A stretch of 64,000 nucleotides of DNA, taken from assembly GCA_944389185.1 (NCBI GenBank), contig CALXLL010000003.1, positions 12,754 through 76,753 on the forward strand. The letters run 5' to 3'. Position numbers and translations under genes: made by a program. Each line of letters begins with the position of its first letter. Position 1 is the first letter of the stretch. Below are positions 2,129 through 57,899 of this stretch, in pieces. This DNA comes from an uncultured Alphaproteobacteria bacterium (GTDB lineage: Bacteria; Pseudomonadota; Alphaproteobacteria; Rs-D84). The notes under the pieces are model-generated. The model saw only the letters and a program-made list of their open reading frames with translations. It made no database searches and had not been told where the DNA came from.

Positions 2129-2145
2129 AATGAGTTGCTGGATTT

Positions 2146-2232
2146 GAGCCACTGAAACAAAAGTGGTTCAACCGCAGCAAAAAGGCGGAATAACGCCGGT
2201 CGCCAGCAGGCGATTTTGCAAGGTGACGAAGT
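2146..2232 (+). other. tRNA-3'-end-associated hairpin-rich module, copy A (homologous to 57046-57143)
   Basis: Three hairpins: CCACT/AGTGG, GGCG/CGCC, TCGCC/GGCGA. They are separated by the blocks TTCAACCGCAG, GG and CAAGGTGACGAAG. The same architecture with compensatory stem changes is found after tRNA-Val at 57046-57143. Confidence 0.6.
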
Positions 2233-2252
2233 AAATCCATTCCCCGCAACCA
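2233..2252 (+). repeat. 20-nt direct repeat of the tRNA-fMet 3' end (copy of 2067-2086)
   Basis: AAATCCATTCCCCGCAACCA is identical at 2067-2086 (T-loop to CCA of the intact tRNA) and at 2233-2252. Confidence 0.9.
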
Positions 2253-25000: not shown

Positions 25001-25076
25001 TGGTGCCGGTTATAGGACTTGAACCTACGACCCCCTCATTACGAATGAGATGCTCTACCAGCTGAGCTAAACCGGC
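25001..25076 (-). tRNA. tRNA-Thr (anticodon CGT)
   Basis: The reverse complement GCCGGTTTAGCTCAGCTGGTAGAGCATCTCATTCGTAATGAGGGGGTCGTAGGTTCAAGTCCTATAACCGGCACCA folds as a cloverleaf. Anticodon loop TTCGTAA. CCA encoded. Confidence 0.88.
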
Positions 25077-31475: not shown

Positions 31476-31552
31476 TGGTGGGTGGTATTGGACTCGAACC
31501 AACGACCTTTACGATGTCAACGTAACGCTCTAACCAGCTGAGCTAACCACCC
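31476..31552 (-). tRNA. tRNA-Val (anticodon GAC)
   Basis: The reverse complement GGGTGGTTAGCTCAGCTGGTTAGAGCGTTACGTTGACATCGTAAAGGTCGTTGGTTCGAGTCCAATACCACCCACCA forms a cloverleaf. Anticodon loop TTGACAT. CCA encoded. Confidence 0.88.
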
Positions 31553-37225: not shown

Positions 37226-37299
37226 TGGAGGCCTGGGTCGGAATCGAACCGGCATACAAGGATTTGCAGTCCTCTGCATAACCACTCTGCCACCAGGCC
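37226..37299 (-). tRNA. tRNA-Cys (anticodon GCA)
   Basis: The reverse complement GGCCTGGTGGCAGAGTGGTTATGCAGAGGACTGCAAATCCTTGTATGCCGGTTCGATTCCGACCCAGGCCTCCA forms a cloverleaf. Anticodon loop CTGCAAA. CCA encoded. Confidence 0.88.
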
Positions 37300-56572: not shown

Positions 56573-56869
56573 ATGGATATGGAAGCTTTGATGGCTCAGG
56601 CCCAAGAGTTACAGAATAAAGTGACCGCAGCGCAAGAAAAGCTGGCAGCTACAAGGATTAAAGGTTTGTCTGCAGATGGTTCTTGCATAATGGAAATAAC
56701 TGGGAAATATGATTTTGTTAGCATAAGTATAAAACAGGATATTTTAGCCGGTGGTGCAAAGAAAGTAGAATCTGTGGTAGCAGAAGCGTTTCGTGACGCA
56801 AAAGCGAAAGCGGATAAAATAATAGACGAAGTAATGGGGCAAGCGACGGCCGGTGTTCCGATGCCTTAA
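56573..56869 (+). CDS. ybaB: nucleoid-associated protein YbaB/EbfC
   Basis: 98 aa. ..LMAQAQELQNKVTAAQEKLA...G.SADG.....ITGK......I fits the YbaB pattern. Confidence 0.85.
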   Translation: MDMEALMAQAQELQNKVTAAQEKLAATRIKGLSADGSCIMEITGKYDFVSISIKQDILAGGAKKVESVVAEAFRDAKAKADKIIDEVMGQATAGVPMP

Positions 56870-56877
56870 TAAAAAAC

Positions 56878-56906
56878 TGGACAAGTGCAAAAAAATGTAT
56901 TATTAT
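56878..56906 (+). promoter_or_regulatory. sigma70-like promoter for tRNA-Val(TAC)
   Basis: TGGACA (56878-56883), 17-nt spacer, TATTAT (56901-56906), 14 nt before the tRNA 5' end. Confidence 0.45.
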
Positions 56907-56920
56907 ATGCACGCTGTTTC

Positions 56921-56997
56921 GGATGTTTAGCTCAGTTGATTAGAGCATCTCGTTTACACCGAGAGGGTCGGGGGTTTGAGTCCCTCAACATCCACCA
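56921..56997 (+). tRNA. tRNA-Val (anticodon TAC)
   Basis: GGATGTTTAGCTCAGTTGATTAGAGCATCTCGTTTACACCGAGAGGGTCGGGGGTTTGAGTCCCTCAACATCCACCA forms a cloverleaf. Anticodon loop TTTACAC. CCA encoded. Confidence 0.88.
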
Positions 56998-57002
56998 GAT
57001 AT

Positions 57003-57027
57003 AAAACCGCAATTTTGCGGTTTTTTT
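57003..57027 (+). terminator. intrinsic terminator after tRNA-Val(TAC)
   Basis: AAAACCGC-AATTTT-GCGG followed by 7 T. Confidence 0.7.
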
Positions 57028-57045
57028 ATTTAACGAAAAGGACGA

Positions 57046-57143
57046 AAACCCCCGAAAAAGGGGGTTGAACCGTAGACACAAGGCAGACGGAAGTATGCCG
57101 GTTTGCAAAGCAAATGTGTCAAGGTGGCGAAGCAGTCCCGGGT
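57046..57143 (+). other. tRNA-3'-end-associated hairpin-rich module, copy B (homologous to 2146-2232)
   Basis: Three hairpins: CCCCC/GGGGG, GGCA/TGCC, TTTGC/GCAAA. They are separated by the blocks TTGAACCGTAG, GG and CAAGGTGGCGAAG, then a degenerate T-arm remnant AGTCCCGGGT. Confidence 0.6.
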
Positions 57144-57183
57144 ATCCACCAGATATAAAACCGCAAAATTGCGGTTTTTTTAT
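57144..57183 (+). repeat. 40-nt direct repeat of the tRNA-Val(TAC) 3' end plus its terminator (copy of 56990-57029)
   Basis: ATCCACCAGATATAAAACCGCAA..TTGCGGTTTTTTTAT occurs twice. The only differences are 2 nt in the hairpin loop (AATTTT versus AAAATT). Confidence 0.9.
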
Positions 57184-57251
57184 AAATAGTTTTGTGTTTT
57201 TTATAAATAGGTATTACAATGTGCTTATAAAACAAAAAATGGAGGAAAGGT

Positions 57252-57899
57252 ATGAAAAAGTTTTTAATCTTTGCTTTAATAGCTTCCGTTCTAAGTTCTT
57301 GTGCAACGGTAAACCCATATACTGGTGAAGCGCAAACCTCAAAAGCAGTGTGGGGCACTGCAATTGGTGCCGCAACAGGTGCTGCAACAGGGGCTTTGGT
57401 GTCAGGTAATCGCGGTGCAGGTGCTTTGGTTGGTGGTTTGGCTGGTGCGGCTATTGGTGGTGGAACAGGTTATTATCTTGACGTGCAAGAAGCTGAATTA
57501 CGTCAAGAACTTGCATCAACTGGCGTAAGCGTTGTTCGTGAATCTGATAATATTCGTTTAGTTATGCCAGGCAATATTACTTTTAAAACAGATTCTTCGG
57601 ATATAAATGCAAGTTTTTATGCCACGTTAAACTCTGTTGCGAAAGTCTTGAATAAGTATGACGATTCTACTGTAATGGTTTTGGGGTATACAGATAATAC
57701 TGGAACCGATGCATATAATCAGACGCTATCGCAACAACGAGCAAATGCGGTTGCGGCGTATTTACAAGGACAGGGTGTAAAAGCTTCAAGGTTTGAAATA
57801 ATGGGTATGTCTTCTTCAAATCCAATAGCAAATAATTCAACCGCAAGCGGACGTCAGCAAAATCGTAGGGTAGAAATTAAGATTATACCTAATAAATAA
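57252..57899 (+). CDS. OmpA-family lipoprotein with glycine-zipper N-terminal region (YiaD-like)
   Basis: 215 aa. Lipobox LSSC, a Gly/Ala zipper (GAATGAATGALVSG..GGLAGAAIGGG), and an OmpA-C domain (GYTDNTGTDAYNQTLSQQRANAV...NRRVEI). Confidence 0.85.
   Translation: MKKFLIFALIASVLSSCATVNPYTGEAQTSKAVWGTAIGAATGAATGALVSGNRGAGALVGGLAGAAIGGGTGYYLDVQEAELRQELASTGVSVVRESDNIRLVMPGNITFKTDSSDINASFYATLNSVAKVLNKYDDSTVMVLGYTDNTGTDAYNQTLSQQRANAVAAYLQGQGVKASRFEIMGMSSSNPIANNSTASGRQQNRRVEIKIIPNK

What the first reader, a model, noticed from the sequence alone, without database searches (positions are those of the whole stretch)
56990..57183. Second tRNA locus with the same architecture: tRNA-Val(UAC) 3' end plus terminator repeated 114 bp downstream
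ATCCACCAGATATAAAACCGCAA..TTGCGGTTTTTTTAT (40 nt: the last 8 nt of the tRNA plus the whole terminator) occurs at 56990-57029 and again at 57144-57183. The copies differ only in two loop nucleotides. The 114-bp filling contains the three-hairpin module and, just before the repeat, a degenerate T-arm remnant (AGTCCCGGGT versus GAGTCCCTCAAC in the real tRNA). Two independent tRNA genes carrying related inserts argues for an active or recently active targeting mechanism rather than a single chance duplication.
Basis: seen in the sequence. Interest (0 to 1): 0.6.

Follow-up and report, generated by a model that had tools for sequence, protein, structure and literature searches.

The report
RtT-like repeat unit behind tRNA-Val
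The repeat behind this valine tRNA gene is one partly decayed unit of a folded, gene-less trailer family that follows many tRNA genes and ends in a copy of the tRNA's own tail; it is a distant alphaproteobacterial cousin of the long-known but unexplained E. coli RtT repeats.

Summary
tRNA-Val(UAC) lies at 56921-56997. The 40-nt stretch (last 8 nt of the tRNA plus the terminator) recurs 154 nt downstream at 38/40 identity; shuffled sequence gives at most 17.

The 114-nt filling is one unit of a multicopy structured element. At least 10 of about 43 tRNA loci in this 0.8-Mb genome carry one. My model finds it in 84 of 107 sampled genomes of the genus, behind at least 16 tRNA species.

Each unit has an antisense T-arm, a sense T-stem strand, a conserved core of about 80 nt, and a 19-nt copy (A58-A76) of the neighbouring tRNA's tail. 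Core helices covary strongly, with G:U pairs on the tRNA-sense strand.

E. coli RtT repeats (Rfam RF00391) share this layout, including a duplicated tail plus terminator behind lysQ. RF00391 nevertheless scores these units below its threshold.

The Val locus is polymorphic in the genus: subfamily A unit, subfamily B unit, stump or empty. No integrase, transposase or reverse transcriptase is present.

This copy is old, with a recently exchanged core and a homogenised terminator. This scan has noted the same family on this genome (two notes) and on other DNA; a word search returned 26 findings.

The parts
56878..56906 (+). sigma-70-like promoter (TGGACA-17-TATTAT) 15 nt upstream of the tRNA; probable promoter of the tRNA-plus-trailer unit
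   Evidence: 10 of 12 consensus matches; function inferred
56921..56997 (+). tRNA-Val(UAC) gene with encoded CCA
56990..57029 (+). direct repeat copy 1: last 8 nt of the tRNA (ATCCACCA) plus the terminator S
57003..57024 (+). palindromic intrinsic-terminator hairpin S (AAAACCGCAA-TT-TTGCGGTTTT) followed by a T run
57036..57151 (+). RtT-like unit, subfamily A (full-length match to my covariance models)
   Evidence: R1 124.3 bits, E 3e-37; R2 113 bits; fold
57040..57053 (+). 5' arm GGAC-GAAAA-CCCCC: degenerate antisense copy of the tRNA T-arm (reverse complement of GGGGGTTTGAGTCC with TC changed to GA). GGAC pairs with GTCC of the tail (P1); CCCCC is the 5' strand of P2
   Evidence: I3: 56968-56983 / 57040-57055, 88% complementary
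57049..57064 (+). hairpin P2: CCCCC-GAAAAA-GGGGG. The 3' strand is the sense T-stem 5' strand of tRNA-Val
57065..57071 (+). T-loop-derived TTGAACC. In the family it pairs with CGAA (Pa) and GGT (Pb) of 57123-57131
   Evidence: helices 4 and 5; pair 55:139 is AU in 54 units and CG in 25
57075..57120 (+). core domain: helix P3 (GACAC / GTGTC) enclosing hairpins P4 (57082-57099) and P5 (57102-57114)
   Evidence: 96% identical to the core of the Pro(GGG) unit on contig C5
57120..57134 (+). conserved strand CAAGGTGGCGAAGCA joining the core to the tail
57135..57151 (+). tail: decayed copy of tRNA-Val positions 59-76 (GTCCCGGGTATCCACCA; intact form GTCCCTCAACATCCACCA)
57144..57183 (+). direct repeat copy 2: last 8 nt of the tail plus the second terminator S'
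57157..57178 (+). second terminator hairpin, the exact reverse complement of the first
   Evidence: I1, I10
2136..2252 (+). sister unit behind tRNA-fMet (tRNA at 2010-2086) in the same window
   Evidence: R1 93.5 bits

Best explanation
The stretch 56998-57183 is one unit (1.26 units counting the repeated terminator) of an RtT-type tRNA trailer repeat.

Shown. It is a gene-less structured element of about 115 nt. It lies on the tRNA strand, right behind the tRNA's terminator. It is built from an antisense T-arm of the neighbouring tRNA, a sense T-stem strand, a conserved core of about 80 nt and a copy of the tRNA's last 19 nt. The core helices are kept by compensatory changes, and G:U pairs show that the tRNA-sense strand is the folded one. 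The family sits behind many different tRNAs. It forms tandem arrays, is gained and lost between species, and swaps cores between loci of one genome. E. coli RtT repeats have the same layout.

Inferred. The unit is transcribed from the strong tRNA promoter by read-through of the first terminator. It folds co-transcriptionally and is cut out by the enzymes that mature the tRNA 3' end, because its tail and following terminator reproduce the tRNA's own 3'-end cassette. That would yield a small stable RNA like the 171-nt E. coli rtT RNA. This RNA would carry an unpaired exact copy of the tRNA's acceptor 3' strand and CCA on a folded scaffold; what it does is unknown.

Also inferred. Unit number and presence change by recombination or replication slippage between the tRNA end and tail copies. 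Cores are homogenised by conversion bounded by the T-loop-derived flanks. On this reading the 40-nt repeat is simply the unit boundary (tail plus terminator), recently homogenised in this lineage.
For: Family membership and copy number. G000 gave 9 R1 matches, 47 of 61 sampled genomes of the genus matched R1 and 84 of 107 matched R2.

Adjacent tRNAs and 19-nt tails.

The 5' arm is specific to its own tRNA: in 33 of 48 units the own tRNA scores best, with a mean score of 13.9 against 8.5 for other tRNA types.

Covariation: 87% of cells are paired against 72% in shuffles; 21 of 27 pairs change on both sides, in 325 cells; 0 of 500 shuffles reach this; slid controls reach at most 44%. G:U is frequent, for example 64 units at pair 87:128 and 28 at 53:154.

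Same layout in E. coli. RF00391 hits 16 places at 6 tRNA loci. The serX units have a 19-nt tail and the arm GGGGGGATGAGAAGCCCC. The lysQ trailer has tail plus terminator duplicated exactly as here.

Reciprocal weak model hits: R1 and R2 match all four tyrT/tyrV RtT repeats full length at E 9e-5 to 3e-2. RF00391 matches the G008 tRNA-Val unit at E 4e-4, 29 bits.

Core exchange: the Val core is 96% identical to the Pro(GGG) core in G000, and sister cores sit at different tRNAs within one genome.

Locus history.

No mobility enzymes.

Literature: rtT RNA is released from tRNA operon transcripts and its function is unknown (PMC4986893, PMC3318445, bioRxiv 10.1101/2024.07.17.603846).
Against: The first terminator has a full T run: 7 T here, and across the family a mean longest T run of 5.6 against 5.1 for the second terminator. 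Transcription into the unit therefore depends on unmeasured read-through. G:T pairs also form in single-stranded DNA, so the strand asymmetry does not strictly prove an RNA. P1 and P2 covary automatically because both sides derive from the tRNA T-stem. The distal 13 nt of the tail are not paired to the 5' flank, so a tRNA-like acceptor helix that would stop exonucleases is not evident. How a unit becomes fitted to a new tRNA is unexplained. RF00391 does not reach its gathering score on any unit.
Confidence: 0.6

Rival explanations
1. An active, non-autonomous mobile element aimed at tRNA 3' ends by its own antisense arm. In this reading the arm acts as a guide that pairs with the tRNA gene or transcript. 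A trans-acting or host enzyme cuts after CCA, in single-stranded DNA in the manner of IS200/IS605, or at the RNA level followed by copying back into DNA.
For: Units sit behind at least 16 tRNA species, each with an arm specific to its neighbour. Presence varies between sister genomes. Tandem arrays are common. Distribution is patchy across Alphaproteobacteria: 2 of about 150 other sampled genomes (roughly one per family). Both unit boundaries follow CCA. The E. coli rttR region is enriched in exonuclease-resistant 'mobilome' DNA under stress.
Against: No Y1 transposase, rve transposase, reverse transcriptase or phage-type integrase was found in a 97%-complete genome that carries 10 occupied loci. 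Among 52 units with an adjacent tRNA, every tail that could be matched resembled its own neighbour, with at most a few mismatches, and none looked like another tRNA's tail, so no 'unadapted' unit was seen (by eye; 11 tails had no 6-nt exact match to score). Many units (fMet, His) look vertically inherited across the genus. The Val copy is decayed.
Confidence: 0.15
2. A by-product of replication errors with no function. Snap-back at the palindromic terminator and at the T-arm would create the sense-antisense-sense triplication of the tRNA 3' end (a miniature tandem inversion duplication). Quasi-palindrome correction and slippage would then shape and amplify it.
For: The formula tRNA(47-76) - palindromic S - reverse complement of 47-62 - loop - 49-58 ... 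59-76 is a sense/antisense/sense arrangement centred on hairpins. The second terminator is the exact inverse of the first. Arrays end at arbitrary points of the unit.
Against: The core is not derived from the tRNA. It is conserved across genera and shows compensatory changes in P3, P4, P5 and Pb. The 19-nt tails stay exact while loops diverge. A similar layout recurs in E. coli. Errors alone do not produce a conserved folded core.
Confidence: 0.12
3. Scars (attL/attR remnants, or a cis-mobilisable gene-less derivative) of integrase-driven islands or prophages that integrate into the 3' end of tRNA genes and duplicate it.
For: A direct repeat of the tRNA 3' end flanks the filling. In G024 the unit lies beside a small extra ORF that the sister genome G006 lacks.
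Against: There is no integrase apart from XerC/XerD. One related core lies behind at least 16 tRNA species, which does not fit integrase specificity. The core sits inside the second tail copy, splitting it at 58|59, instead of lying between intact att sites. The core carries RNA-type covariation.
Confidence: 0.06

Closest known systems
RtT RNA / rttR and the 178-bp repeats of the E. coli tyrT-tyrV operon (Rfam RF00391), with the further RtT copies behind proK, the lysT operon, valU-lysV, serX and argQZYV-serV
   Same: It lies directly 3' of tRNA genes on the same strand. The order of parts is antisense T-arm (often GGAU-GAGAA), hairpin, GGTTCGA, two core hairpins, CGAAG, and an 18-19-nt copy of the tRNA tail ending in CCA. 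It forms tandem arrays whose unit includes the spacer or terminator. The tail plus terminator is duplicated behind E. coli lysQ exactly as here. Arms are fitted to each tRNA. There are reciprocal sub-threshold model matches.
   Different: The core sequence and lengths differ: there is no GCGCAGCGCTGAGTA segment, and P3-P5 differ. RF00391 gives no hit on the window's units at E<=10 and only 29 bits (gathering score 45) on the G008 ortholog. The host is an alphaproteobacterium with a tiny genome, not an enterobacterium or Pasteurellaceae member. There is no tpr-like ORF.
tRNA-integrating genomic islands, prophages, tycheposons and their gene-less derivatives (CIMEs)
   Same: The tRNA 3' end is duplicated as a direct repeat bounding extra DNA, and the site is occupied in some relatives and empty in others.
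   Different: There is no integrase. Many tRNA species share one core. The second tail copy is split by the core at T-loop position 58|59. Units are 110-180 bp and fold as one structured strand.
REP/BIME and REPIN elements with RAYT transposases; IS200/IS605 miniature derivatives
   Same: They are short, multicopy, hairpin-rich and intergenic, with strand-specific folding and frequent placement after terminators.
   Different: No Y1/RAYT gene was found. Location is strictly tRNA-linked. The ends are copied from the neighbouring gene, not from the element.
Functional tRNA spacers and trailers such as 3'ETS-leuZ of E. coli, an sRNA sponge (recalled from my own knowledge, Lalaouna et al. 2015; not checked here)
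   Same: A by-product of tRNA operon processing that acts as an RNA in its own right.
   Different: 3'ETS-leuZ has no tRNA-tail copy, no antisense arm and no multicopy family. No target pairing is known for RtT-like units.

Membership tests
RtT RNA (Rfam RF00391) | Covariance-model score at or above the gathering score (45 bits) | tested here: not met
   No RF00391 match on 56900-57250 at E<=10, nor on 9 other loci of the genome at E<=1. The best match among 41 relatives is the orthologous G008 Val unit at 29 bits, E 4e-4. No match above threshold in 151 sampled genomes of the class.
RtT RNA (Rfam RF00391) | Lies immediately downstream of a tRNA gene, on the same strand | tested here: met
   The tRNA ends at 56997 and the unit spans 57036-57151 on the + strand. 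This holds for 52 of the 80 fetched family members, which have a tRNA within 230 nt upstream; the others are mostly second units of arrays or lie at contig ends.
RtT RNA (Rfam RF00391) | The unit ends in a copy of the last 18-19 nt of the neighbouring tRNA, including CCA | tested here: met
   Here 8 nt are exact plus a decayed 9 nt (57135-57151). The ortholog in G008 has an exact copy of this length, and about half of the 52 units examined have 19-21 exact nt. E. coli tails are 18-19 nt.
RtT RNA (Rfam RF00391) | 5' arm antisense to the tRNA T-arm, followed by a hairpin and GGTTCGA | tested here: met
   GGACGAAAACCCCC...GGGGGTTGAACC. Arm specificity was tested. The E. coli equivalents are shown.
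RtT RNA (Rfam RF00391) | Tandem repetition of the unit together with its spacer | tested here: met
   1.26 units at this locus. Elsewhere in G000 there are 2.6 units (Arg-CCT) and at least 3 (Arg-ACG). G137 has 4 units at 164-nt spacing.
RtT RNA (Rfam RF00391) | Released as a discrete RNA by processing of the tRNA transcript | not testable with these tools
This is known only for E. coli rtT (cited in PMC3318445 and PMC4986893).
tRNA-targeting integrative elements / CIME | A site-specific integrase in the element or in the genome | tested here: not met
   The only two PF00589 matches are XerD-like and XerC-like. One small serine recombinase lies at C6:35512-35937, not next to any unit.
tRNA-targeting integrative elements / CIME | One target tRNA, or very few, per element family | tested here: not met
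   Subfamily A units lie behind at least 16 tRNA species.
IS200/IS605-type or REPIN single-strand elements | A Y1 (HUH) transposase or RAYT in the genome | tested here: not met
   PF01797 gives no match in G000, while the control genomes respond.
Retroelement-derived repeats | A reverse transcriptase in the genome | tested here: not met
   PF00078 gives no match.
Known self-cleaving ribozymes and other Rfam families | A match to any of the 4227 Rfam models | tested here: not met
   Only chance-level matches at E<=10. The weak RsmY match on the His unit (E 0.19) was discounted because the genome has no CsrA.

The most novel reading that the evidence does not exclude
RtT-like units are a protein-less, self-fitting genetic parasite, or symbiont, of tRNA genes. 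The antisense T-arm would act as a guide that lets the conserved core be copied behind, and re-fitted to, any tRNA gene using only host replication, recombination or tRNA-processing enzymes. This would explain the spread over at least 16 tRNA species here. It would also fit the reported presence of the same design in Gammaproteobacteria, CPR bacteria and Clostridia; those last two are unchecked notes from this scan.
Probability: 0.15. Interest if true: 0.85.

Novelty: new variant of a known kind. Interest (0 to 1): 0.5.

Why it matters
RtT repeats have been known since the first sequencing of the E. coli tyrT locus, and an RNA product was described in 1991, but their function is still open. 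They are catalogued only for Gammaproteobacteria. This locus belongs to a large and diverse alphaproteobacterial branch: I counted hundreds of units in about 100 genomes of one genus, behind at least 16 tRNA species.

That diversity gives real comparative power. It defines a covarying core. It shows that the folded strand is the tRNA-sense strand. It shows that the exact, unpaired copy of the tRNA's acceptor 3' strand plus CCA is the most constrained part. It also shows that cores are exchanged between loci while the arms stay fitted to their tRNA. Each of these statements can be tested in laboratory E. coli, which carries the same design at six tRNA loci.

For annotation, these units explain many assembly breaks and 'partial tRNA' calls next to tRNA genes in small genomes.

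Tried and rejected
1. Rfam at permissive thresholds on this and nine other loci gave no family for the module.

2. Hammerhead-like reading of GGAUGAG...CGAAC: there is no Rfam support, and the GAU lies inside helix P1, so I rejected it.

3. CsrA sponge (GGA motifs in the P4 loop and the arm; weak RsmY match): the genome has no CsrA above threshold, so I rejected it.

4. 'Leaky first terminator, strong second terminator': T runs do not differ (5.6 against 5.1), so this is not supported.

5. tRNA minihelix or acceptor-stem mimic, with the 5' flank pairing the whole tail. In-register pairing beyond one extra pair is at chance level. Gapped complementarity of the 5' flank to the distal tail is no better for the unit's own tail than for foreign tails (3.96 against 3.77). 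I rejected this for subfamily A; P1 is only about 5 bp.

6. Integrase, transposase, reverse transcriptase and Y1 searches in the genome found nothing beyond XerC/D and one small serine recombinase.

8. The original paper of Bosl and Kersten 1991 (PMC329039) is not held. The CoCoNuT preprint listed for 'RtT' no longer contains the term.

9. Insertion or deletion polarity from the G006/G024 sister pair. The indel covers the unit plus a small ORF and lies between the T runs of two terminators. It may be a deletion in G006, so it cannot be counted as a clean gain.

Full report
**Observation.** The window carries tRNA-Val(UAC) at 56921-56997 on the + strand. The 40-nt string ATCCACCAGATATAAAACCGCAATTTTGCGGTTTTTTTAT (56990-57029) recurs at 57144-57183 with 38 of 40 identical bases, leaving 114 nt between the copies. 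The two differences are the central loop bases, so the second hairpin is the exact reverse complement of the first (I1). Shuffled versions of 56800-57400 never gave a direct repeat longer than 17 nt with two mismatches or fewer. A promoter-like site lies at 56878-56906 and the first hairpin scores as an intrinsic terminator.

**What the filling is.** The 114 nt align with the trailer of tRNA-fMet at 2087-2256, with compensatory changes in every hairpin. BLAST and motif scans of the 796-kb assembly found more copies. All of them lie directly behind tRNA genes: Arg(CCT) with 2.6 tandem units, His, Pro(GGG), Arg(ACG) with at least 3 units running over a contig break, and a contig end whose tail fits Arg(TCT). 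A second subfamily (B) follows Tyr, Gln(TTG) and Gln(CTG). That makes at least 10 of about 43 tRNA loci.

**Unit grammar.** Each unit follows one formula. After the tRNA's CCA comes a palindromic terminator-like hairpin S. Next is an antisense copy of the tRNA T-arm, then a short loop, then the sense T-stem 5' strand plus TTYGAA. The conserved core follows: CCGCAG, helix P3 enclosing hairpins P4 and P5, and CAAGGTGRCGAAGYA. The unit ends in a copy of the tRNA from A58 to A76. In other words, the core splits a partial tRNA copy in the T-loop between positions 58 and 59. The Val unit folds into this consensus by itself (z = -2.7).

**Family size and structure.** A covariance model built from seven units (R1) matched 47 of 61 sampled genomes of the genus, with 1-9 units each. 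A second model built from 89 units (R2) matched 84 of 107 genomes of the genus. It also matched 2 of 14 genomes of other genera in the same family, 7 of 19 genomes of one further family of the order, and 2 of about 150 other sampled alphaproteobacterial genomes, roughly one per family. Those distant matches also lie about 50 nt behind tRNA genes and form tandem arrays.

I fetched 80 units with their flanks. Of these, 52 had a tRNA within 230 nt upstream: Arg-TCT/CCT/ACG, Val-TAC, Lys-CTT/TTT, Glu-CTC, Ala-CGC, Pro-CGG/GGG/TGG, fMet, elongator Met, His and Ser-GGA/TGA. About half of them had an exact tail copy of 19-21 nt. The 5' arm is specific to its own tRNA: the own tRNA scored best in 33 of 48 units, with a mean of 13.9 against 8.5 for other tRNA types.

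On the 89-unit alignment, 87% of cells are paired against 72% in shuffles. Twenty-one of 27 pairs show changes on both sides, in 325 cells, and none of 500 shuffles reached this. Slid controls reach at most 44%. The core helices and the long-range helix ACC:GGU (A:U in 54 units, C:G in 25) are independent of the tRNA sequence. Their covariation is therefore real evidence for a selected fold. Frequent G:U pairs (64 units at one pair, 28 at another) show that the folded strand is the tRNA-sense strand.

Two refinements came out of negative tests. P1 is only about 5 bp, and the last 13 nt of the tail (acceptor 3' strand plus NCCA) are not paired with the 5' flank. P1 and P2 covary automatically because both sides derive from the T-stem, so an alternative fold with two T-arm-like hairpins cannot be excluded.

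**Relation to RtT.** The E. coli tyrT/tyrV repeats (RF00391, 133-137 bits) read GGGGAAGGAT-GAGAA-hairpin-AAGGTTCGA-two hairpins-CGAAG...-ATCCTTCCCCCACCACCA. This is the same order of parts. RF00391 finds 16 copies at six tRNA loci of E. coli K-12. The three 181-bp serX units end in a 19-nt tail and carry the arm GGGGGGATGAGAAGCCCC, with the same TC-to-GA change seen in several units here. The lysQ trailer has tail plus terminator duplicated exactly as in this finding.

My models, built only from the alphaproteobacterial units, match all four tyrT/tyrV repeats full length and in register, at E 9e-5 to 3e-2. RF00391 in turn matches the tRNA-Val unit of the closest relative G008, at 29 bits and E 4e-4. 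No unit reaches the Rfam gathering score. I therefore file the element as RtT-like, a new variant, and not as a member of RF00391.

The literature I could read describes RtT as released from tRNA operon transcripts, conserved in Pasteurellaceae next to tRNA genes, responsive to stress, and of unknown function.

**History of this locus.** Among the 22 same-genus loci that still held tRNA-Val(UAC), the site behind it takes several states:

- a subfamily A unit in G000 and G008;
- a subfamily B unit in G024 and G002;
- only a stump of the 5' arm in G014 and G012, and perhaps G017;
- no unit (the terminator is followed by the next gene or by unrelated sequence) in G001, G003, G004, G005, G006, G007, G009, G013, G019 and G021.

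In a tree of the neighbouring OmpA-like protein, G000 and G008 are sisters (support 98/94), so their unit predates their split. G006 (empty) and G024 (B unit) are also sisters (100/97). Their difference covers the unit plus a small ORF and lies between the T runs of two terminators, so it may be a deletion in G006.

The G008 unit has an intact tail and a core of the fMet/Arg(ACG) type. The G000 unit has a mutated tail, a reduced arm and a core 96% identical to the Pro(GGG) unit of the same genome. A tree of cores shows sister cores at different tRNAs within one genome in G000 (twice), G014 and G051, beside tRNA-specific clades such as fMet. Cores are therefore exchanged between loci while the arms stay resident.

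In G008 the two terminators differ, and the second one resembles both terminators of G000. Across the family the two terminators are alike in 7 of 29 loci and clearly different in 21. The 40-nt repeat of this finding is thus a recent local homogenisation or duplication of the unit boundary, and not the footprint of a fresh insertion.

**Mechanism.** The genome (97% complete) has only XerC- and XerD-like tyrosine recombinases and one small serine recombinase that is not next to any unit. It has no reverse transcriptase, Y1 transposase or rve-type transposase. This argues against integrase scars and against a classical transposon.

My best reading, at about 0.6, is a processed tRNA trailer RNA of the RtT type. 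It would be expressed by read-through from the tRNA promoter and bounded by two copies of the tRNA's own 3'-end cassette. It would be maintained because the RNA, with its exact free copy of the tRNA end, does something still unknown. At the DNA level it would be reshaped by recombination or slippage between tail copies and by core conversion.

The rivals are a guide-directed mobile element (0.15), a functionless product of snap-back replication at the terminator and T-arm hairpins (0.12), and integrase scars (0.06).

The first terminator looks efficient, which is the main weakness of the RNA model.

**Context in this scan.** Earlier notes on this same genome describe the fMet unit as RtT-like and the Gln 172-bp repeat as a gene-less cassette. 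A word search returned 26 findings reporting the same design, in at least 26 genomes; those shown lie in CPR bacteria, Saccharibacteria and gut Clostridia. I tested the RtT comparison and the multi-locus claim myself. I did not test the reports from other phyla.

Noticed in passing
window 57176-57189 and 57197-57210: An exact 14-nt direct repeat TTTTTTATAAATAG lies just after the second terminator, in the promoter region of the OmpA-like lipoprotein gene (57252-57899).
   Followed up: no
G000 contig C6:1-222 (outside the window): tRNA-Ala(GGC) is followed by tandem repeats of about 82 bp that re-copy the whole T-arm plus 3' end, with no RtT-like core. This is a different kind of tRNA-end repeat and it runs into the contig end.
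   Followed up: no
G000 C8:1-260, C11:3613-3800 and C4:77709-77862 (outside the window): The trailers of tRNA-Ser(GGA), tRNA-Ser(CGA) and tRNA-Pro(TGG) share another conserved non-coding sequence (..TACCAGT.T.TA..CCCC..CCAAAA..). It may be the end of a different element family.
   Followed up: no
G000 C6:34985-37634 (outside the window): A small serine recombinase (200-aa frame, C6:35512-35937) lies downstream of tRNA-Asn between two copies of the same terminator-like 15-mer. This may be a small integrated island.
   Followed up: no
L048, L050, L060 (units behind Glu-CTC and elongator Met in G054 and G058): In different genomes and behind different tRNAs, the tail is followed not by a terminator but by a shared motif, TCCGTCTTCGC...GCGATTGG. 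This suggests a further conserved module that docks onto tail copies.
   Followed up: no
L024 (G024) and L015 (G003), between tRNA-Val and the OmpA-like gene: A small ORF of about 70 aa ending in ..NIKSR* is present in some species and absent in G000, G006 and G008. In G024 it lies just after the RtT-like unit.
   Followed up: partly
window 25001-25076, 31476-31552, 37226-37299: The other three tRNA genes of the window (Thr-CGT, Val-GAC, Cys-GCA) have plain trailers with no unit, so occupancy is selective even within 64 kb.
   Followed up: yes
E. coli K-12 NC_000913 780554-781808 (L134): Truncated RtT units form the spacers inside the lysT-valT-lysW-valZ-lysYZQ operon. Each ends in the tRNA-Lys tail just before the next tRNA, so in E. 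coli they are certainly part of the polycistronic precursor.
   Followed up: partly
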